From: a virus | Reading direction: 5' to 3' (one strand) | Virus record (IMG/VR): IMGVR_UViG_3300019468_000034 | Length of the DNA: 38,383 nt | In this document: positions 1 to 38,383 of the stretch, piece after piece | How the letters are laid out: every line of letters begins with the position of its first letter | Position numbering within the stretch: position 1 is the first letter of the stretch | Translations under genes and position numbers: made by a program | Notes under the pieces: generated by a model | The model's input: only the letters and a program-made list of their open reading frames with translations | What the model was told of the DNA's origin: nothing | Database searches by the model: none

Positions 1-127
1 CGGAAAACCGTGCAATATAAGAAAGGAAAATAAAAATGGACACATGGACGGTTAATAAGCTAGAACAAATGGGCATAGACCCTAGCACAGCATGTAAGAA
101 ATGCGGCTATGACAACGGAATCGACAA
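1..127. repeat. 127-bp terminal redundancy, exact copy of 38257..38383; indicates circular assembly or a direct terminal repeat (unit length 38,256 bp)
   Basis: Bases 1..127 are identical to 38257..38383 by direct reading. Confidence 0.9.
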
Positions 128-1952: not shown

Positions 1953-2225
1953 ATGAAAATCACATTACCGGAATGGATCAACGCCAAGAAGAACAACGAG
2001 GAAGAAAAAAGTTATAAAGACATAGAGCTGCAGCTTGAAGGAATAAAAATTATAAACAAACGGCTAACGGAAGATAACCTTGAGTTACTGACAGAAAACC
2101 GTCGTCTTAAAGAAGAAAACAAAGATATTAAATTCTATGCTACGTGTGGCGGTATTTTCATAGGTGCATTGGTTTTAGTGGATCTCATAACCTCTATAAG
2201 CCTGGTCGATTTAATTACCCGATGA
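1953..2225 (+). CDS. hypothetical coiled-coil protein with a hydrophobic C-terminus
   Basis: GGAGGT RBS; 90-aa ORF. Confidence 0.45.
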   Translation: MKITLPEWINAKKNNEEEKSYKDIELQLEGIKIINKRLTEDNLELLTENRRLKEENKDIKFYATCGGIFIGALVLVDLITSISLVDLITR

Positions 2226-3833: not shown

Positions 3834-4153
3834 AGTTCATAGATTTTTTCGCCGGTATCGGGGGCTTTCATTCAGGCTTAGAGAAAGCGGGCATGGAATG
3901 TATCGGTTGGTGTGAGTTCGATAAATTCGCTCAAAAAAGTTATAGGGCTATGTATGATACGGAGAGGTTGTGGTTTGCAGATGATATCAGAAAAGTCAGA
4001 GGTTGGGACGTGCCGAAAGCCGACTTATGGACATTCGGATTCCCTTGCCAAGACGTTAGTATCGCCGGGAAGCAAAAAGGAATTAAACGAGGAACAAGGT
4101 CCGGACTTTTTTATGAAAAACATAAAGAAATGGAGTGTATAAAATGGCGATGA
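3830..4153 (+). pseudogene. DNA cytosine-5 methyltransferase N-terminal fragment (motifs I and IV only); truncated remnant
   Basis: MKFIDFFAGIGGFHSGLEKAGMECIGWCEFDKFA...DIRKV...DLWTFGFPCQDVSIAGKQKG..RGTRSGLFYE, then a stop. No ENV motif or target-recognition domain in any downstream frame. Confidence 0.7.
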
Positions 4154-4350: not shown

Positions 4351-4656
4351 ATGTGTACATTGAAGAAATATAGAGAATACGACCCTAATACAATTGAAGC
4401 CGTTCAATTTACGGGAGAAAACGGGGACGAGATACTAACCCTTTTAAACGTTAGGGGCGGTGTTTGGACTACACTTAAGCGAGAATTTGATGAAGATACA
4501 GGCGAAGAGTTTCATAAGCGTGTACTAACACTGGAAATTATTGATGGTAGCAAGAGATGTAGGGCGTTTCAAGGCGACTATGTTCTTAAAACTGTACATG
4601 GCGAGATATACACACTTGACGAAGAGTCGTTTTTAACTAGTTTTGAAGAGATTTAA
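4351..4656 (+). CDS. hypothetical protein
   Basis: GAGGGGAG RBS. Confidence 0.5.
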   Translation: MCTLKKYREYDPNTIEAVQFTGENGDEILTLLNVRGGVWTTLKREFDEDTGEEFHKRVLTLEIIDGSKRCRAFQGDYVLKTVHGEIYTLDEESFLTSFEEI

Positions 4657-29700: not shown

Positions 29701-29810
29701 TCCAAGAACTTATTACCACAACGATATTTGATAAGCGCTACAAGACACACGAAGAACGGGTACGCCAAGACAAGAAAAAGGCTAATGAACAAAAAAAGAA
29801 AGGAAAATAA
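20757..29810 (+). CDS. giant virion protein (3,017 aa) in the gp16 position; internally duplicated module plus an HExxH zincin motif; candidate polyvalent ejected effector
   Basis: AAAGGAG RBS; uninterrupted 9,054-nt ORF. Two QRAWHG...HGWGxY modules at aa 1085 and 1364. HEAAH at aa 1636. Confidence 0.7.
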   Translation: MAEYRFDNFKIDANNPTGETPSSDVLNLNNDNLGSQEGMAQANAELQEKYNSINQQVASGQIKQKPQMNYQHQESNWTPQQEENDGIGTKIYNGLLAIGNWEVNSAMDVYRNLFNPNARAMNQAKTYADTLGLSAQFLMDNPDAYNTAEEIYNKKMAARFLGGVKFSTAALDDMYPELAEIRQKDPVSAAMALQDYEDVKNTRSIFEVVKDAFNSGSDMVKLSDAQMRAYNGESIDSVRPDVDKLTDELRAYQEPNKYERTLYDTIQQLTIMGTQAVRATKRAAQGAALGMATSAAAAGGAAATVIGAEAAPIILLAGATTGAAYGMRVGMFEQFEQQSAAARYWELMNNRKGEYSRNHALVDSTVTGVVNGAIELGLMEVGYKPITKAWGGQAAKSILNNAAARMAIIDAGKESIAKLSAQAAMKQFGRSTAAELAEEGAQQASEDLMDNAEYYLYKKGAPHTTTEIIGNAVDAMVQAVPAVVGMGAMGAITHGVGNYRSMRAIAAIKNEDWKQEYRRTVEQQTIEALMANKAQNKTAQKNPEVYKNVVQEQARLAGVQNMYVDAQELSKTDKGVDVLNDMVNRGIITGEQVDKSISTGADIVIPTGTFAQLADESVDTDTLMRATTMAKNGVHRAALEEKAKRVEAIREELANLAQNKKDVLSKELMEEHFSNADDITRTAAESVIYKNPYDLNKSYKEALADARKEYEDALGFDAYWNYKPQGVGIMYTDEESRQTGRGIRVSNNDYWYQDMYKKLGRKATREEMLDIAYEDQMKELQTLAPEAADEFAQNANSLKAKYESLQGLKDKFEELAKSDYAVKQSLTKEGYEVYNEVVNRLQDGSEKSKLAANENAFIYARMAESWARIRNEYGDTAYTAKDFMAEHAVNIGYENIKNTYTQAMFDVRRVGVNNLEDFLKRVKARRSAGEVANKIMFTGKFGVIYTEAQVVHAMTEHNGHILTTEQMEDIEKHIGIMHHVAISRKKELTNFNGVPVLASINGEKGDYYVVLEFNKDGKIWFKTGMPVSTDSAKSIIKQKIEEGSAYRLTHNTQGRTGLNTSSIRIDTVAEKLKSVNNKEKDTFDQRAWHGSGMDFNEFNLEKALTGAGDMVHGWGIYTAKNKKTAQAYKKHAQSKGLPSYLYEVDIPKDENLLVEEKRYQEQTPKIQEKLARTISDLPDSQQKIFWEKLLRNEMRRLPEETEALSDLDKAKDKVKQLEVASKGLENTDKPKLKEKIAIKHLKALGYIDKQIKDRNFMQTEKEKEEKVLAAVKKEAEKAKASIQERKDSILEAAIQNPKDALKRSVGTGKEIYRYLSASLDSMEEASQQLNKNGIEGISYYDSKDGDCVVVFSDKAVNIIDQYKQRAWHGTPYDFDTFDLSGIGSGEGNQAHGWGLYFAQNREVSEAYKEILGDKGSTVELNGEVWTVNESGDWETTGKTAKYGEAIGYALDALEEHGTKDAAINILQKDLKEGRFRGAYIAEAQKAVNILRQGEAKGHKGGRLLEAEIPDTDVLLDEQKLFKEQPEKVKNALSKLISNTGEGQLSRRAFKNATGKSIYEMLSNLYGDDKKASLKLNEFGVKGITYKGTQDERCYVVFDDKAIEIRNKYDQEIKASYNSATGAIHLFDGADQSSFVHEAAHMYLTEMSKMAVDEAAPKGLMEDWNTIQNWAAYKPEDIKDYEGTAREKEFKSYAKAIEDARKSGDVIAIRAAEERWMQERFARGFERYIAEGKAPTQALQSAFRKFKSWLISIYRDLKKLGKEPPEDVKRVMDRMIATDDEIEAWAKAKELNAWDKKGFSGDLTGSEGDMIKRWAEDAKEKAKERVLKELMRQEENQWRTDLENSLEKERIDYEKHLVDENPIYGQELVYRETGEQFKEDYLRTIGYDSKESFESAIEKAGGPLEERSKAFMENRRKEYEEMMPTSEDFKNAADAELASTNAQMRLSQLEAYAIKRKVNGYVAEAVKAMRELDALDGKSEEEITAGIKEILGVDDEAAKKGRQVALVLAKNEEIQKLKERLKDAKEKDKEYRALAREELASAKAALKEAMRGLNTARDITAGSYTKTLQVAREELSKMTVAEATIWRHWEIKAKQEGNNADKLMAAGAFEEAATAKGNSLKYYCMSRAAKDNQEYVRTKLEGSTGRVDMQQEAMDGIKGMVKRISRRENPVRLDPNSRYMIQHLAYITGITEKDGIKPLNEKGESVGINWEKVYGDLNPDYAMDKETAPNPDKIVAPWLRILAESKERKDYNEMQMDQFQDMVEAMNVLYKASRRDYEATTIKDRNGKVISQEEAALKLVQAIGVDNSFNPLQDSNNQTDAKSKAKSLAKDALLYLTKAETIFDRFGGDWMQLVYEPINQGANKELTMRQEACKTFSKIYNMYSLEEWQAMRSDRVFTIGLTTNFTREQLICMALNWGNKEGRKRVLATINKSAKNEADVIDEYTMQSVLESSLTEKDWNFIEAVWEQLDSYWAERNKVQENLYGQGLGKVQALPFNINGRQIKGGYYPIVYDPKLSIRASDLAADDIVKQALSGSSTFGIGMGSTKSRVSEVKGQQLALRLDVWPQAVTEAIHHIAMREAATDVYKLITHPAVQQAVQQKYGMETYNIIRQWSKDVWKTDVQKADIINRTLEQMRKNSAFAVMAMRTGTAILNVLNVFPMMHQIGKINTLKAITGFGLGFYKGTDTYARNRQFVFDKSPMMRDRMNTIDRDMQQDMKLEVGQDTSLIRERATHAKEKFNRFGYWFITETDLMFSMALWKHGYDESMRKQIEAGMTDVKQMEQNAISDADTNVRAVFGSGQVKDQVAMQRKNTLVGQLTPFYSYSSTVLNALIKAGYRVKDHGDYMALINATLYWVVLQTLAETVYRSAVAGELDDPDKMLRRLGITTVRNVDQGIPVVRDALEGVMNHFLLGSDSNNSPLAITAIDELVKAAQAAGNEKKDFTDVGRSLSRVGNRTWKFSDTLSDGFWNLVRFSLVDTDRSVQELITTTIFDKRYKTHEERVRQDKKKANEQKKKGK

Positions 29811-34014: not shown

Positions 34015-34278
34015 ATGGAAGAGAGAAAATATCAAGTATCGGTAGAATATCCGTTCGACAACGCAGACGCATGGGATTTTGCAACGAAGGAAGAGGCCTT
34101 AAAGGAGTTCGACGAACTCAAGAAGGAAGTGAACGACAGGGACGTAGCCGCAATGCTCAAGATTACAGACCGGGAGAACAATTACAAGGTTGTTGAGTTT
34201 TACGTCAACAGACGAGAAATGTTCAGTATCGACGAATTGAACGACTATGAGAACACTCTCATAGCGTGGGATGAATAA
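34015..34278 (+). CDS. hypothetical acidic protein (moron cassette gene 1)
   Basis: AAAGGAGAA RBS; 87 aa. Confidence 0.5.
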   Translation: MEERKYQVSVEYPFDNADAWDFATKEEALKEFDELKKEVNDRDVAAMLKITDRENNYKVVEFYVNRREMFSIDELNDYENTLIAWDE

Positions 34279-34645
34279 AATAAAAGCGGCACGAGAAGCC
34301 GCAGGACTTACGCAAGCCGAAGTCTTTGAAGTGCTCCGTATACCCATGCGGACACTTCAAGACTGGGAGAACGGCAGAAGAACGCCGCCTGAATGGGCCG
34401 AACGGTTAATAACAGAAAAACTAAGCTTAATAGCTAGAAGGACGAAAGGGGATATAAGAATGGCAGAATACATGGTAGTATACGAAGATGAAGACGGGAT
34501 TAGCGAAGTCCCGTTCGATGATTACGAAGAAGCTGGGCAATACTTTGATGACCTCGAAGATGATTGCACATGGGCAGAGCTTAGAAGATATAACGACATG
34601 ACCGATTACGATGTTATCGGAGCAATCGGACGAAGAGGAAGATAA
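34271..34645 (+). CDS. HTH (XRE/antitoxin-like) domain protein with an acidic C-terminal region (moron cassette gene 2)
   Basis: AAREAAGLTQAEVFEVLRIPMRTLQDWENGRRTP is an HTH-like motif. Confidence 0.5.
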   Translation: MNKIKAAREAAGLTQAEVFEVLRIPMRTLQDWENGRRTPPEWAERLITEKLSLIARRTKGDIRMAEYMVVYEDEDGISEVPFDDYEEAGQYFDDLEDDCTWAELRRYNDMTDYDVIGAIGRRGR

Positions 34646-34898: not shown

Positions 34899-35960
34899 TC
34901 ATTTAAAAATATTTGCGACCCTGTCCGCTGCCCGAAGTCGCATCTCGTCCGTAAAATGAATGTATGTGTTAATAACGGTATTTACGTCATCGCCTAAAAG
35001 ACTTGCAACGGTTTTTACGTCAAGGCCGTTCGCTAAAAGCGTAGTCGCGTATGTGTGTCTCATATCGTGAATCGATTTTCCACTTACAACCGTCCATATA
35101 ACATTATTAACCCGGCTGGAATGATTACCTTTAGCAGGAAACAATACAAGGCCGTCGCATTGCTTTTTATAGTCCTTTAATATCTTCAACAACACCGGCG
35201 GGACGGGAAGTATACGATAACTGTTTTTAGTCTTTAGTTGATTAAACCCAAACTTATTTTGCCCGGAACGAACAAACTGCTTATTAATATTAATGGTAGA
35301 CACTGAAAAATCAATATCATCCCATGTTAAGCCTAGAATTTCACTATAGCGACAGCCGGTATATCTGGCAACAGAAACCAAAGCGTAGTAATACGAAGAA
35401 TAGCCTTTTAGAAAATCCATCAACCTGTCCAGATCATCCTCGGTAAACACCCTAATTTTTCTCCGTTCGCTTTTCGCCTTTTCAACCAAATCGCACGGGT
35501 TAAGGGCAATAGCACCATAGGGTCTTTTTGCGTAATTAAAAATAGTCTTTAGGCGTTGGAGATATAAATTTCTTGTTCCGGGAGAAAGGCAACCGGAGTT
35601 AAAAACCGAAACGATTTGAGAATACGAAATGTTGCGGATAGGAAGCGGTGCTAATTCCTGGAAGAATCGCAAAGAGTGCTCGTAAGTAAGACGGGTATTA
35701 TAGGTGAGATTCGACTTCTCGCGAAGGTATAAAGAATAGAAGTCACCAAGCGTGGCATCGCGGAGATCCTCGGAGGTGAAAACGGAAACTGTTTCTTTTA
35801 ACTCGGCGATAATATCCTGGCCATATTCTTTAGCCGCTCTTTGCGTTTTAAAGCCTTGCTTTGACTTTTGACGCCACTTACGACCGTCTTTATAACTAAC
35901 AATAACCTGATAGCCGTTATCCTTTTTTCGTATTGTAATATTTGCCTGCATTTTTAACAC
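34899..35960 (-). CDS. int: tyrosine site-specific integrase
   Basis: HDMRHTYAT and the C-terminal catalytic Tyr region VINTYIHF. N-terminal arm-binding-like domain. 353 aa. Confidence 0.9.
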   Translation of the reverse strand: MLKMQANITIRKKDNGYQVIVSYKDGRKWRQKSKQGFKTQRAAKEYGQDIIAELKETVSVFTSEDLRDATLGDFYSLYLREKSNLTYNTRLTYEHSLRFFQELAPLPIRNISYSQIVSVFNSGCLSPGTRNLYLQRLKTIFNYAKRPYGAIALNPCDLVEKAKSERRKIRVFTEDDLDRLMDFLKGYSSYYYALVSVARYTGCRYSEILGLTWDDIDFSVSTININKQFVRSGQNKFGFNQLKTKNSYRILPVPPVLLKILKDYKKQCDGLVLFPAKGNHSSRVNNVIWTVVSGKSIHDMRHTYATTLLANGLDVKTVASLLGDDVNTVINTYIHFTDEMRLRAADRVANIFK

Positions 35961-36540: not shown

Positions 36541-37044
36541 TTATTTATAAAGAGAGCGCTGGAAATCAGCATTTAATTTTTTATTAAAGTACATGTGATA
36601 ACACTCAAAAAAGAAAAGTTCGCCTACCATTGTACGGAGGGAAAATTTAGCTATTGCAGGGGAATAAACAACTTTTGCGGATTTATCAGCATCCATATCA
36701 AACAAAAAAGCACCGTTTTCGTCGTAAGCGCCACCTTGACGTCTTAATAACTGCATGGTTTGGGAGTCAAAATCATAATAGAAAATACAGGAATACTTAA
36801 CCAACACAGGACCATCACTGTCGTAAAGTTCCGTCCAATAATCGCCAATAATTGTATAAAACGGAGGATCATAACGGACGGGGCATATAGAGGCGGTATC
36901 AATATAATATGTGGCTCGCATAGTAGAATGGAATTTTCTGTAGCGACCACCGGAAGCAGCCCCATCGGAAAGAAACGAAGCCGAAACAGGAAGGATACAA
37001 ATAAAGAACGCAATAAAAAGTAAGAATGTGCGCTTGATTAACAT
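36541..37044 (-). CDS. secreted protein with a Sec signal peptide, hypothetical (lysogen orientation)
   Basis: MLIKRTFLLFIAFFICILPVSA|SF is a signal-peptide-like N-terminus. A GTG start at 37053 is an alternative. Confidence 0.5.
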   Translation of the reverse strand: MLIKRTFLLFIAFFICILPVSASFLSDGAASGGRYRKFHSTMRATYYIDTASICPVRYDPPFYTIIGDYWTELYDSDGPVLVKYSCIFYYDFDSQTMQLLRRQGGAYDENGAFLFDMDADKSAKVVYSPAIAKFSLRTMVGELFFFECYHMYFNKKLNADFQRSLYK

Positions 37045-37063
37045 AAAATACACCGCCTTATTT

Positions 37064-37531
37064 TCAATTTATGTAACACGACGTACCCGCAAAAACCTTT
37101 AGCAATTCCAATACTCGTTCAGTAGTAAGCAATTTCTCTTCCCGTATCCCGTCTATCATATCGGCATTATTCCGTAAACACGTATGAGCAATTAGAAGAA
37201 ACGCAAACTTATTTGCTTCAAGCTCTTGCCGACCCACTCTCTCCGGACTCTCCTTGCGAGGAACAACATCGAAACCCAAAACCCTGTGCTGTACATGACC
37301 AAGGACGGCATGGCCAAGCTCGTGGGCTATAACAACGTTTTGAGCGTTAAAATCAAGATGCTTATTAACATAAATAACATTATACCCAAACACACAAAGA
37401 GACAAGCCTTTCGGCATATCGGGGATTACCACCTTCTTTACACTTATTTTTAAGTGCTGACACAATTCGGAGGGGTCGTTCGTGCCGTATTCACGAATTA
37501 AATCCAACACAACCGGCAGCATACGTTTCAC
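37064..37531 (-). CDS. immA: ImmA/IrrE-family metallopeptidase (anti-repressor protease)
   Basis: HELGHAVLGH HExxH motif. GTG start overlaps the repressor TGA stop as GTGA. GGAGG RBS. Confidence 0.85.
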   Translation of the reverse strand: MKRMLPVVLDLIREYGTNDPSELCQHLKISVKKVVIPDMPKGLSLCVFGYNVIYVNKHLDFNAQNVVIAHELGHAVLGHVQHRVLGFDVVPRKESPERVGRQELEANKFAFLLIAHTCLRNNADMIDGIREEKLLTTERVLELLKVFAGTSCYIN

Positions 37532-37866
37532 AACTCATCCTCCAAGGCTGCTTGAATTAGCCGTTCAAGCAATTCTTTTTTAATGGGCTTACCGCCGTAA
37601 GTACAATAAGAAGCGGACCTTAACACATCTTTAAGATCGGTTTGTACTGAAAAGCCGCTGCCCTCAAAATCATAACCAAGCAGCCACGCCGGGCTTACCG
37701 ACAAAGCACCAGCAATTAGAGCTACCTTATCCTGTTTAGGGACATACTTACCAGTTAAATAATCAGAAATAGATGAAGTCCTTAGGCCCGTAAGTCTCGA
37801 TAAGTCAGCCTGACTAATAGACCGCTCGGACATAATTTGCCGCAATCGCTCGATAAATGTATTCAT
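37528..37866 (-). CDS. immR: XRE-family HTH repressor (ImmR/cI-like)
   Basis: ISQADLSRLTGLRTSSISDYLTG is an HTH motif. GGAAGG lies 7 nt upstream of ATG 37866 (MNTFIERL...). Confidence 0.8.
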   Translation of the reverse strand: MNTFIERLRQIMSERSISQADLSRLTGLRTSSISDYLTGKYVPKQDKVALIAGALSVSPAWLLGYDFEGSGFSVQTDLKDVLRSASYCTYGGKPIKKELLERLIQAALEDEL

Positions 37867-37908
37867 AAAAAAACCTTCCAATCCGCGAACAAACTATATA
37901 AGTAGTAT

Positions 37909-37924
37909 ATACGGAAAAGCGTAT
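37909..37924. promoter_or_regulatory. operator-like dyad ATACGGAAAAGCGTAT (imperfect copy)
   Basis: Member of the ACGGAAAA(C/G)CGT family. Confidence 0.45.
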
Positions 37925-37949
37925 CACATCAATATAAAATAAAAAAGAT

Positions 37950-37965
37950 TATACGGAAAACCGTT
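37950..37965. promoter_or_regulatory. operator-like dyad ACGGAAAACCGT overlapping the -35 of the rightward promoter and a leftward TATAAT
   Basis: Core at 37953..37964. Confidence 0.5.
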
Positions 37966-37992
37966 TACAAAAATACATATGTGTGATATATT
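37964..37992 (+). promoter_or_regulatory. rightward promoter for cro (-35 TTTACA, 17-nt spacer, TGn plus -10 TATATT)
   Basis: Hexamers and spacing as read from the sequence. Confidence 0.5.
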
Positions 37993-38000
37993 TGTAACAA

Positions 38001-38014
38001 CACGGAAAACCGTG
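38001..38014. promoter_or_regulatory. operator dyad CACGGAAAACCGTG (perfect arms) just downstream of the rightward promoter
   Basis: Arms CACGG/CCGTG around an AAAA spacer. Confidence 0.5.
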
Positions 38015-38031
38015 CAAAAGGGGTGAGAAAA

Positions 38032-38253
38032 ATGGAAAAATTCAATTATGCAAAATTAAGAGGTTTTATTGCAGAACACTTTGTAACCCATAGCAATTTT
38101 GCCAAATTCTTAGGAATCGGCACCACAGCTCTGTCCGAAAGAATGCAAAACAAAGTCCCTTTCACACAAAGGGAGATTGCAAAAGTGGCTAGAGAAGCAA
38201 CCGGCAAGAAACTTTCAGCCGAAGAAGTAGAGACTCTTTTTTTTACATATTAA
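38032..38253 (+). CDS. cro: Cro-like HTH regulator, divergent from the repressor
   Basis: FAKFLGIGTTALSERMQNKVPFTQREI is an HTH-like motif. GGGGTGAG RBS before ATG 38032. Confidence 0.6.
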   Translation: MEKFNYAKLRGFIAEHFVTHSNFAKFLGIGTTALSERMQNKVPFTQREIAKVAREATGKKLSAEEVETLFFTY

Positions 38254-38269
38254 GCACGGAAAACCGTGC
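38254..38269. promoter_or_regulatory. fourth operator-like dyad GCACGGAAAACCGTGC immediately after the cro stop codon (continues into window position 1)
   Basis: Perfect 6-bp arms; the same motif as 38001..38014. Confidence 0.45.
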
Positions 38270-38383
38270 AATATAAGAAAGGAAAATAAAAATGGACACA
38301 TGGACGGTTAATAAGCTAGAACAAATGGGCATAGACCCTAGCACAGCATGTAAGAAATGCGGCTATGACAACGGAATCGACAA
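38257..38383. repeat. second copy of the 127-bp terminal redundancy (equals 1..127)
   Basis: Exact identity to the window start. Confidence 0.9.

What the first reader, a model, noticed from the sequence alone, without database searches (positions are those of the whole stretch)
37867..38031. The immunity switch has three ACGGAAAA(C/G)CGT dyad operators between divergent immR and cro, plus a fourth after cro
The 14-16-bp dyad CACGG-AAAA-CCGTG occurs at 37909..37924 (imperfect), 37950..37965, 38001..38014 and 38254..38269 (perfect, GCACGGAAAACCGTGC). Copy 2 overlaps the -35 (TTTACA) of a well-formed rightward promoter (TGn plus -10 TATATT at 37987..37992) and a leftward perfect TATAAT (rc of 37948..37953) that has a poor -35, reminiscent of an activator-dependent PRM. 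Copy 1 lies in the spacer of a second leftward promoter candidate (TTGATG, 17 nt, TATACT on the - strand). Copy 4 sits between cro and the next early gene. The ImmR stop and ImmA start overlap as GTGA, implying translational coupling. This is a compact, experimentally tractable genetic switch.
Basis: seen in the sequence. Interest (0 to 1): 0.6.

Follow-up and report, generated by a model that had tools for sequence, protein, structure and literature searches.

The report
Phage dormancy switch: four repressor sites
Four copies of a 12-base near-palindrome mark where a gut phage's repressor most likely binds to keep the virus dormant. The sites are real and conserved, but the switch is a new member of the known TP901-1 type, and the gene called 'cro' is most likely an anti-repressor rather than a rival DNA binder.

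Summary
ACGGAAAA(C/G)CGT occurs at 37911-22, 37953-64, 38002-13 and 38256-67, and nowhere else in the 38-kb circular phage genome (three exact copies against 0.01 expected).

The four-site layout recurs in at least 15 divergent phage lineages. It tracks one feature only: a repressor recognition helix reading SSISD[Y/W].
- Site 1 fills the spacer of the repressor promoter and is always imperfect.
- Site 2 abuts the -35 of the lytic promoter.
- Site 3 lies at the lytic transcription start.
- Site 4 lies 2 nt after the stop codon of the first lytic gene.

The interpretation needs correcting. The best solved-structure relative of the repressor N-terminal domain is TP901-1 CI. 'Cro' is a DUF739/MOR homologue that keeps MOR's CI-binding aromatic residues, while its HTH-like segment does not track operator type. 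Sites 2, 3 and 4 correspond to TP901-1 OR, OL and OD.

The repressor C-terminal tail and the overlapping M78 gene resemble the phi105 and ICEBs1 ImmR/ImmA induction module.

The proposed PRM-like TATAAT is not conserved.

Verdict: a well-formed, tractable switch that is a new member of a known kind, with a new operator specificity.

The parts
37911..37922 (.). Site 1: imperfect operator ACGGAAAAGCGT (extended dyad 37909-37924). It fills the 17-nt spacer of the leftward repressor promoter and is the predicted weak, autoregulatory site.
   Evidence: It is at the same position and always imperfect in the half-site distal to the -10 in all 12 lineages that have it.
37953..37964 (.). Site 2: operator ACGGAAAACCGT. 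Its last T is the first base of the lytic -35. It is the positional equivalent of TP901-1 OR.
   Evidence: The ccgT-TGACA junction is conserved across lineages. It lies 41-42 bp from site 1 in 8 lineages.
38002..38013 (.). Site 3: operator ACGGAAAACCGT (14-bp dyad 38001-38014), about +3 to +14 of the predicted lytic transcript. It is the positional equivalent of TP901-1 OL.
   Evidence: Compared with TP901-1.
38256..38267 (.). Site 4: operator ACGGAAAACCGT (16-bp dyad 38254-38269), 2 nt after the mor stop codon and 254 bp from site 3. It is the positional equivalent of TP901-1 OD.
   Evidence: A perfect 12-mer in all 15 lineages, 249-277 bp from site 3. TP901-1 OL-OD is 248 bp.
37964..37992 (+). 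Predicted lytic promoter: -35 TTTACA, 17 nt, extended -10 TGnTATATT.
   Evidence: Conserved as TTGACA ... TATAAT-like in other lineages. Consensus match only; no transcription start data.
37904..37932 (-). Predicted repressor promoter: -35 TTGATG (37932-27), 17 nt, -10 TATACT (37909-04).
   Evidence: TTGnnn/TATAAT with site 1 in the spacer is conserved in L016, L017, L053, L055, L057, L058, L071, L107 and L118.
37528..37866 (-). Repressor, 112 aa. N-terminal HTH domain (about residues 1-67, recognition helix RTSSISDY, invariant KYxPKQDK) plus a 45-aa C-terminal tail.
   Evidence: Pfam HTH_3. Best PDB hits are the TP901-1 CI N-terminal domain, 5A7L/6TRI, E 1e-7. 63% identical to the 80alpha/phiETA CI N-terminal domain. 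The tail aligns with the phi105 repressor.
37064..37531 (-). ImmA-like M78/COG2856 metallopeptidase (HELGH motif). Its GTG start overlaps the repressor stop (GTGA).
   Evidence: Pfam Peptidase_M78, E 4e-9. PHROG metallo-protease, 1e-16. 30% identical to phi105 ORF2. The overlap is conserved.
38032..38253 (+). MOR-like (DUF739) protein, 73 aa, first gene of the lytic operon.
   Evidence: Pfam DUF739, 1.2e-8. TP901-1 MOR is DUF739 at 1.6e-42. The only PDB hit is MOR 6TO6/6TRI. Interface aromatic residues are conserved.

Best explanation
This is the lysis/lysogeny switch of a complete, circular 38.3-kb temperate phage. It is of the TP901-1 CI/MOR design.

The 112-aa repressor most likely binds as a dimer, through its N-terminal HTH domain, to 12-14-bp sites of the form tACGG-AAAA-CCGTa. 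The ACGG/CCGT half-sites would be read directly. The A/T centre would be read indirectly.

Proposed role of each site:
- Sites 3 and 4 are perfect and probably high affinity. Site 3 covers the transcription start of the lytic promoter.
- Site 2 overlaps the lytic -35. Together sites 2 and 3 shut off the lytic operon.
- Site 4, just after the first lytic gene, helps repression by long-range cooperative binding or looping to sites 2/3, or by acting as a roadblock.
- Site 1 is a deliberately weak site in the spacer of the repressor's own promoter. It limits repressor synthesis at high concentration.

Two routes would release repression:
- The DUF739 protein made from the lytic promoter acts as a MOR-type anti-repressor. 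It binds the repressor's N-terminal domain rather than competing for the operators.
- The translationally coupled M78 protein (ImmA-like) inactivates the repressor through its C-terminal tail on induction, either by cleavage or by blocking oligomerisation.

Shown here: the sites, their positions relative to consensus promoters, their conservation, their co-occurrence with one recognition helix, and the homologies.
Inferred: binding itself, affinities, looping, the Mor-repressor interaction, and ImmA action.
For: 1. Enrichment and clustering of the motif.
2. Forward test. All 12 lineages with recognition helix SSISD[YW] carry the motif at the same 3-4 positions. None of about 16 lineages with other helices has a match with two mismatches or fewer in the 520 bp upstream.
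3. Reverse test. A collection-wide search for two copies of the 12-mer returned three new loci with intact repressors, and all three read SSISDY and have a mor-like neighbour.
4. Lineages with altered helices (L016 SLISGY, 80alpha/phiETA NSISDY) use the symmetric variant ACAG-AAAA-CTGT at the same positions.
5. The heteroimmune mosaic L018 swaps the N-terminal domain, the operators and cro together, but keeps the C-terminal tail and the ImmA gene.
6. Promoter geometry is conserved around the sites.
7. Homology to TP901-1 CI and MOR, with matching OR/OL/OD positions. CI binding to OR, OL and OD was shown experimentally in TP901-1 and phi13 (PMC7250872, PMC8516035).
8. The MOR interface residues Y3, Y5, W43 and F67 appear here as F4, Y6, F44 and F71, and are invariant or aromatic across the family. 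CI Q55 corresponds to Q45 in the invariant KQDK (PMC11149083).
9. The C-terminal tail and the M78 gene are similar to the phi105 repressor and ORF2. ImmA cleaves ImmR in ICEBs1 (PMC8960796, PMC6868357).
10. The predicted affinity order (sites 4 and 3 perfect, site 2 variable, site 1 always imperfect) parallels phi13, where OL and OD bind at 15-22 nM and OR at 310 nM (PMC8516035).
Against: - There is no binding, footprint or transcription start data. The promoters are consensus matches only, and the count in this region is not above shuffles.
- The half-site centres are only 8-9 bp apart, shorter than in TP901-1 operators (about 11 bp), so the dimer geometry must differ.
- The repressor lacks the TP901-1 CTD2 hexamerisation region, so looping to site 4 is uncertain. 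The site 3 to site 4 distance (249-277 bp) is not helically phased.
- The match to MOR in the PDB is weak on its own (E 0.013).
- MOR residues implicated in DNA contact are not conserved (R31 becomes T). No OM-like TCAACAAAA motifs flank site 2.
- CI interface residues Y59 and E69 are not conserved (A and P).
- Among 15 near-identical relatives the operator cores are not less variable than the rest of the intergenic DNA.
Confidence: 0.75

Rival explanations
1. Lambda-like competition. The DUF739 protein is a true Cro that binds the same four dyads with the opposite affinity order and shuts off the repressor promoter.
For: - The protein has an HTH-like segment and weak matches to repressor PHROGs.
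- Homologues are annotated 'Cro-like repressor' in S. thermophilus phages.
- Site 1 in the repressor promoter would be an obvious Cro target.
- A DNA-binding role for MOR within a CI:MOR complex is proposed for TP901-1 (PMC7250872).
Against: - TP901-1 MOR does not bind DNA efficiently on its own. It binds the CI N-terminal domain (PMC7250872, PMC11149083).
- The HTH-like segment differs widely among lineages that share the identical operator. It is identical between the window and L016, whose sites 3 and 4 are ACAG-type.
- The invariant residues of the family are the CI-interface aromatics, not the putative recognition helix.
Confidence: 0.15
2. The dyads act as RNA hairpins. Site 3 would be a stabilising 5' stem-loop on the lytic mRNA. 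Site 4 would be an attenuator or processing signal between mor and the early genes.
For: Sites 3 and 4 are transcribed. They fold at -6.6 and -11.6 kcal/mol, with z-scores of -2.3 and -4.9.
Against: - Sites 1 and 2 lie in promoter DNA outside any predicted transcript.
- No U-tract follows site 4, and there is no Rfam match.
- The extended stem at site 4 is not conserved.
- The A4 centre is inverted at site 4 in L053 and L071, and the half-sites rather than stem length are conserved.
- The motif tracks a protein recognition helix.
Confidence: 0.04
3. The sites are bound by a host transcription factor rather than by the phage repressor.
For: None specific. Short dyads can be host regulator sites.
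Against: - The motif changes with the phage-encoded N-terminal domain. The same flanks with a different N-terminal domain carry different dyads in L018.
- Distant hosts (staphylococcal 80alpha) carry a sister motif along with a sister N-terminal domain.
Confidence: 0.02
4. The M78 partner works without proteolysis. Like Rir of S. thermophilus phage TP-J34, it would bind the repressor and block its oligomerisation. This is a rival only for the induction step.
For: Rir/Crh is a COG2856/XRE pair in the same gene order, and induction there occurs without cleavage (PMC6868357). The window protein aligns weakly to Rir around HELGH.
Against: The window protein is more similar to phi105 ORF2 (30% identity, E 3e-10) than to Rir (E 1e-4). 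The repressor tail resembles the phi105 repressor tail. I recall that phi105 ORF2 is described as an ImmA-type anti-repressor; I did not retrieve that paper.
Confidence: 0.3

Closest known systems
Lactococcus phage TP901-1 CI/MOR switch (also S. aureus phi13)
   Same: - Gene order int ... M78 ORF - cI / mor, with a 4-bp stop/start overlap of cI and the M78 ORF.
- The CI N-terminal domain is the best solved relative of the window repressor.
- MOR is DUF739, like the window protein.
- Operators sit upstream of the lytic -35 (OR), at the lytic start (OL) and at the end of mor (OD). OL-OD is 248 bp against 254 bp here.
   Different: - Operator sequence: AGTTCAYR half-sites in a 19-bp site there, ACGG-A4-CCGT in 12-14 bp here.
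- OR is 6 bp upstream of the -35 there and overlaps it here.
- TP901-1 has no operator in the spacer of its cI promoter. Site 1 here is extra.
- CI is 180 aa with a hexamerisation domain. The window repressor is 112 aa with an unrelated tail.
- No OM-like motifs are found here.
S. aureus phages 80alpha / phiETA / phiPVL108 CI plus DUF739
   Same: - Closest annotated relatives of the N-terminal domain (63% identity over residues 1-67).
- Divergent DUF739 gene.
- Three sites at the same positions with the sister motif GTACAG-AAAA-CTGTAC.
   Different: - The C-terminal domain is LexA-like and there is no M78 partner.
- The half-site is ACAG rather than ACGG.
- No site-1 equivalent was noted.
- I found no description of their operators in the searchable literature.
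B. subtilis phage phi105 repressor / ORF2 and ICEBs1 ImmR/ImmA
   Same: - An XRE repressor followed by a co-oriented M78/COG2856 gene.
- The window M78 protein is 30% identical to phi105 ORF2, and the repressor tail aligns with the phi105 repressor.
- phi105 also has three intergenic operators plus one in the 3' end of the first rightward gene.
   Different: - phi105 operators are asymmetric 14-mers in direct repeat (GACGGAAATACAAG).
- Its first rightward gene is not DUF739.
- ICEBs1 ImmR did not appear among the PDB matches at E<=0.01.
S. thermophilus phage TP-J34 (Sfi21-type) Crh/Rir/Coh
   Same: Module order int - lipoprotein - M78-like - repressor / cro-like, with an operator immediately after the cro-like gene.
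   Different: - Crh is only 20% identical.
- Coh is a conventional HTH protein, not DUF739.
- Rir acts without cleavage (PMC6868357).
Phage lambda OR/PRM/PR
   Same: Divergent promoters, graded operator affinities, and a weak autoregulatory site analogous to OR3.
   Different: - No homology of the second regulator to Cro.
- No evidence for a PRM-like activated promoter.
- A distal operator lies after the first lytic gene.

Membership tests
TP901-1-type CI/MOR genetic switch | Repressor with a CI-type N-terminal HTH domain | tested here: met
   Top PDB sequence matches are TP901-1 CI N-terminal domain entries 5A7L, 6TRI, 3ZHM and 3ZHI, E 1e-7 to 4e-6, over residues 6-67.
TP901-1-type CI/MOR genetic switch | Divergently transcribed MOR (DUF739) gene as the first lytic gene | tested here: met
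   DUF739 at E 1.2e-8, 35.4 bits against a cut-off of 27. TP901-1 MOR scores 1.6e-42 against the same model. The only PDB hit is MOR.
TP901-1-type CI/MOR genetic switch | Three related palindromic CI operators at OR, OL and OD positions | tested here: met
   Sites 2, 3 and 4 occupy the equivalent positions. The sequence differs from AGTTCAYR.
TP901-1-type CI/MOR genetic switch | Direct CI N-terminal domain:MOR complex (anti-repression) | not testable with these tools
   Indirect only. MOR Y3/Y5/W43/F67 equivalents are conserved as F4/Y6/F44/F71. CI Q55 is conserved, M73 becomes L and F75 becomes Y, but Y59 becomes A and E69 becomes P (PMC11149083).
TP901-1-type CI/MOR genetic switch | OM1-OM2-OR-OM3 composite operator (TCAACAnAA / TCAAnAAAA motifs flanking OR) | tested here: not met
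   Only A-rich tracts lie left of site 2. There is one 1-mismatch TCAATATAA 14 nt too far away, and no consistent motif across lineages. This feature is itself only proposed for close TP901-1 relatives (PMC7250872).
TP901-1-type CI/MOR genetic switch | Hexameric CI (CTD1 hook plus CTD2) | tested here: not met
   The repressor is 112 aa. The alignment to CI ends at residue 67, and the tail matches the phi105 repressor instead. The oligomeric state is unknown.
ImmR/ImmA (COG2856/XRE) anti-repressor pairs | XRE-family repressor with an adjacent co-transcribed COG2856/M78 protein carrying HEXXH | tested here: met
   HTH_3 and Peptidase_M78 with HELGH. PHROG metallo-protease. A 4-nt stop/start overlap is conserved in L001, L017 and L018.
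ImmR/ImmA (COG2856/XRE) anti-repressor pairs | The repressor tail co-inherits with the protease | tested here: met
   L018 keeps the same tail (…SYCTYGGKPIKKELLERLIQAALEDE) and the M78 gene with a different N-terminal domain. Lineages with the same N-terminal domain but other tails lack this M78 gene.
ImmR/ImmA (COG2856/XRE) anti-repressor pairs | Site-specific cleavage of the repressor by the protease on induction | not testable with these tools
   Known for ICEBs1 at F95-M96 (PMC8960796). A non-proteolytic mode is known for Rir/Crh (PMC6868357).
Lambda-type CI/Cro switch | Second regulator is a Cro that binds the same operators | tested here: inconclusive
   No sequence relation to Cro families beyond a generic HTH. 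The HTH-like segment does not track operator type. Binding was not testable.

The most novel reading that the evidence does not exclude
One small repressor integrates two separate anti-repression inputs through two exchangeable modules. A MOR-type protein acts on the N-terminal domain for the infection-time decision. An ImmA-type M78 protein acts on the C-terminal tail for prophage induction.

TP901-1 carries the same overlapping M78 ORF (ORF3) downstream of cI. The same logic could therefore explain its still unexplained RecA-dependent induction, which occurs without CI self-cleavage.

A side reading concerns L003 and L013. Each has hits in both site 2 and site 3, and both share the Mor change E64K. 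They may be natural immunity-escape (vir-like) variants circulating in gut communities.
Probability: 0.3. Interest if true: 0.5.

Novelty: new member of a known kind. Interest (0 to 1): 0.3.

Why it matters
It gives a compact, sequence-defined immunity switch for a family of uncultured human-gut phages.
- The operator, 5'-tACGGAAAACCGTa-3', is not found as an operator in the searchable literature.
- There is a clear protein-DNA pairing: helix SSISD[Y/W] goes with ACGG, and NSISDY or SLISGY goes with ACAG. This could serve as a specificity code and as a marker for predicting immunity groups from metagenomes.
- It corrects the routine 'cro' label for DUF739 genes.
- It shows how the N-terminal domain/operator/mor cassette and the tail/ImmA cassette are shuffled independently.

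It does not reveal a new regulatory principle.

Tried and rejected
- **Fifth site at 2091-2102 (ACAGAAAACCGT).** It lies inside a coding sequence (LLTENRR). Its last base varies at the wobble position in homoimmune relatives, and it is equally present in the heteroimmune L018. Rejected.
- **Other matches with two mismatches or fewer** (3038, 19313, 26487). Their number equals chance.
- **PRM-like TATAAT at 37953-48.** Not conserved outside near-identical genomes.
- **Intrinsic terminator at site 4.** No U-tract, and not called by the scan.
- **Rfam.** No family matched.
- **DNA-level search of INPHARED phages.** No match.
- **OM-type MOR sites.** No consistent motif.
- **Helical phasing of sites 3 and 4.** Distances of 249-277 bp are not phased.
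- **phi105 lead from memory.** The operator GACGGAAATACAAG was confirmed in the sequence. The shared ACGGAAA is probably coincidence, because the recognition helices differ and the phi105 sites are asymmetric.
- **TP-J34.** Only distantly related.
- **Purifying selection on operator cores among the 15 close relatives.** Not detectable, because the intergenic regions are nearly identical.
- **Structure prediction.** Not run. Sequence-level PDB matches already identify both folds, and a complex could not be submitted.

Full report
**1. The observation**

Reading 36600-38383 confirms every coordinate.
- Site 1, 37909-24: ATACGGAAAAGCGTAT.
- Site 2, 37950-65: TATACGGAAAACCGTT.
- Site 3, 38001-14: CACGGAAAACCGTG.
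- Site 4, 38254-69: GCACGGAAAACCGTGC.

The exact 12-mer ACGGAAAACCGT occurs three times against 0.01 expected. With the C/G degeneracy and one mismatch there are five matches against 0.58 expected. One of those five is a coding-region near-match, rejected in section 9. Matches with two mismatches or fewer outside the switch equal chance.

The consensus scan finds two promoters:
- rightward, TTTACA-17-TGnTATATT at 37964-37992;
- leftward, TTGATG-17-TATACT at 37932-37904.

Site centres are 42, 49 and 254 bp apart.

**2. Context**

Window 1-127 is identical to 38257-38383. Relatives read straight through the junction. The window is therefore a complete circular 38,256-bp phage genome, and the lytic operon continues from site 4 into position 1.

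Left of the switch, on the minus strand, lie:
- an integrase (34899-35960);
- two small membrane or secreted proteins;
- an M78 metallopeptidase (37064-37531);
- an HTH_3 repressor (37528-37866).

Rightward lie:
- a DUF739 protein (38032-38253);
- a small Cys-rich ORF;
- an excisionase (184-501);
- a dUTPase;
- a methyltransferase;
- a rolling-circle-type initiator.

**3. Conservation and who binds**

I fetched loci encoding relatives of the repressor. These showed three things.

*Co-occurrence with the recognition helix.* The four sites recur at the same positions in many lineages whose repressor N-terminal domains are only 44-70% identical. Every lineage whose recognition helix reads SSISD[Y/W] has the motif. 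None of about 16 lineages with another helix has a match with two mismatches or fewer in the 520 bp upstream.

*Reverse test.* I scanned the viral collection for two copies of the 12-mer 30-60 bp apart. This returned three further loci with intact repressors. All three read SSISDY, have a mor-like neighbour and show the four-site layout.

*Altered helices and mosaics.*
- L016 (SLISGY) and staphylococcal 80alpha/phiETA (NSISDY, 63% identical N-terminal domain) use the symmetric variant ACAG-AAAA-CTGT at the same positions.
- L018 is a mosaic. Its flanks, M78 gene and repressor tail match the window at 87%. Its N-terminal domain, operators (AACGAATAAATTCGTT) and cro are replaced together.

This is the behaviour expected of operators read by the repressor N-terminal domain. 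Pooling 46 sites gives tACGGAAAACCGTa, with C2, A6 and G11 invariant and an A/T-only centre.

**4. Anatomy**

Across lineages:
- Site 1 exactly fills the spacer between TTGnnn and TATAAT of the leftward promoter. It is always imperfect, in the half-site distal to the -10.
- The last T of site 2 is the first T of the rightward -35 (ccgT-TGACA).
- Site 3 begins about 6 nt after the -10.
- Site 4 lies within 0-15 nt of the end of the DUF739 gene and is a perfect 12-mer in every lineage.

Spacing:
- Sites 1-2 are 41-42 bp apart in eight lineages. That is four helical turns, and it puts site 2 at about -61.5 of the leftward start.
- Sites 2-3 are 44-52 bp apart.
- Sites 3-4 are 249-277 bp apart and are not phased.

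**5. What the proteins are**

*Repressor.* The best solved relatives are TP901-1 CI N-terminal domain entries.

*DUF739 protein.* Its only solved relative is TP901-1 MOR, and MOR is the archetype of DUF739.

*TP901-1 layout.* TP901-1 has the same order, including an M78 ORF (ORF3) overlapping the cI stop by 4 bp. Its operators OR, OL and OD sit upstream of the lytic -35, at the lytic start and over the mor stop. OL-OD is 248 bp (PMC7250872).

*What is known about MOR.* In TP901-1 and phi13, CI binds these three sites. MOR binds the CI N-terminal domain as an anti-repressor and does not bind DNA efficiently alone (PMC7250872, PMC8516035, PMC11149083).

*Alignment of eleven DUF739 proteins.*
- The invariant or aromatic positions are F/Y4, Y6, F/W44 and F70-F71. 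These are the equivalents of the MOR interface residues Y3, Y5, W43 and F67.
- The HTH-like segment is variable. It is identical between the window and L016 despite different operators.
- CI Q55, which inserts into the MOR pocket, corresponds to Q45 in the invariant KYxPKQDK motif.

I therefore read 'cro' as a MOR-type anti-repressor. This is an inference from homology.

**6. Induction module**

- The repressor tail (residues 68-112) aligns with the phi105 repressor (E 4e-9).
- The M78 protein is 30% identical to phi105 ORF2.
- The same N-terminal domain type is found fused to LexA-like S24 domains (L023, L029, L055, L058, L059) or to other short tails. The SYCTYGGKP tail always travels with the M78 gene.
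- The GTGA overlap is conserved. In L017 the start is TTG with no ATG alternative.
- ImmA cleaves ImmR in ICEBs1 (PMC8960796). Rir of TP-J34 inhibits Crh without cleavage (PMC6868357). Either mode is possible here.

**7. Rivals**

- A lambda-like Cro model is not excluded but is disfavoured (section 5).
- An RNA-hairpin role fails to explain sites 1 and 2, the flipped centres and the link to the protein helix. There is also no Rfam hit and no terminator.
- A host-factor model contradicts the cassette-like co-replacement seen in L018.

**8. Comparison and novelty**

An operator placed after the first lytic gene is common in Gram-positive phages. I confirmed it in TP901-1, 80alpha, phi105 and TP-J34.

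What is specific here:
- the operator sequence, which no searchable paper holds as an operator;
- a fourth, weak site inside the repressor promoter;
- the combination of a TP901-1-type N-terminal domain/MOR cassette with a phi105-type tail/ImmA cassette.

This makes it a new member of a known kind. It is well suited to experiment, but it would not surprise a specialist.

**9. Things tried that led nowhere or were rejected**

- The near-site at 2091 is coding and not conserved at wobble positions.
- There was no DNA match in annotated phages.
- No OM motifs were found.
- No excess conservation of operator cores is detectable among the 15 near-identical relatives.

In that set the only operator-core changes are in two genomes. 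L003 has site 2 C>A and an extra A in site 3. L013 has site 2 G>A and site 3 C>T. Both also share Mor E64K. This post hoc pattern is suggestive of immunity-escape variants. L003 also carries other indels, so sequencing error or decay cannot be excluded.

Noticed in passing
window 1-127 and 38257-38383: The two ends are identical (127 bp) and relatives read through the junction. The window is a circularly closed 38,256-bp phage genome, and site 4 sits 1 nt before the repeat.
   Followed up: yes
L003 (sites at window-equivalent 37962 and after 38005) and L013 (37963, 38003); both at 38221: Among 15 near-identical relatives the only operator-core changes are in these two genomes. Each has one hit in site 2 and one in site 3, the two sites that bracket the lytic promoter. 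Both share the Mor substitution E64K. They may be natural vir-like escape variants. L003 also has a 15-bp in-frame insertion in the M78 gene and several indels.
   Followed up: partly
L018 (IMGVR_UViG_3300007314_000016): Heteroimmune mosaic. It has the same M78 gene, repressor tail and early genes (about 87% identity). The repressor N-terminal domain, the operators (AACGAATAAATTCGTT, also three positions including the end of cro) and a conventional HTH cro are swapped in as one cassette.
   Followed up: yes
L033 (TP901-1) 2212-2649: TP901-1 ORF3 overlaps the cI stop by 4 bp, matches Peptidase_M78 (25.7 bits, cut-off 22) and has HELGH. The TP901-1 papers I read say RecA-dependent induction without CI self-cleavage is unexplained, and they do not mention ORF3. 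An ImmA/Rir-type role would be testable.
   Followed up: partly
L034 (80alpha) and L035 (phiETA) switch regions: Staphylococcal 80alpha-type phages have GTACAGAAAA(A/C)(T/C)GTAC at OR-, OL- and OD-like positions next to a DUF739 gene. I found no description of these operators in the searchable papers.
   Followed up: partly
window about 1388-1395 (ORFs 1220-1552 and 1410-1682): A G8 run splits a Dam-like N6-adenine methyltransferase. L001 and L003 have G7, and removing one G gives one ORF with the NPPY motif. This is either an assembly error or a phase-variable homopolymer.
   Followed up: partly
L114 3466-3544 (IMGVR_UViG_3300027805_001049): An unrelated contig carries five tandem ACGGAAAACCGT copies at a 22-23-bp period inside a 254-aa replisome-organiser-like ORF. 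It looks like an iteron-type origin using the same 12-mer. This may be coincidence, or conceivably a repressor-titrating array.
   Followed up: partly
L102 (phi105) 3969-4044 and 4361-4374: The phi105 operators GACGGAAATACAAG share ACGGAAA with the window motif, and one lies in the 3' end of the first rightward gene. The topology is the same, but the sites are asymmetric direct repeats and the recognition helix differs.
   Followed up: yes
window 2091-2102: ACAGAAAACCGT lies inside an early gene and encodes TENR. The same peptide, TENR, is encoded by site 4 where it falls inside the extended mor ORFs of L019-L023 and L029.
   Followed up: yes
window 20757-29810: A single 3017-aa ORF in the tail region. 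This is unusually long for a 38-kb phage.
   Followed up: no
window 34015-34645: Two overlapping + strand ORFs (87 aa of unknown function, and 124 aa with an N-terminal HTH_3) lie between the late genes and the integrase. They may be a moron or an antitoxin-like pair.
   Followed up: no
window 37936-37949 and the equivalent position in other lineages: A conserved A6-A8 tract lies between the leftward -35 and site 2. It could be a shared UP element or part of a Mor-dependent composite site.
   Followed up: no
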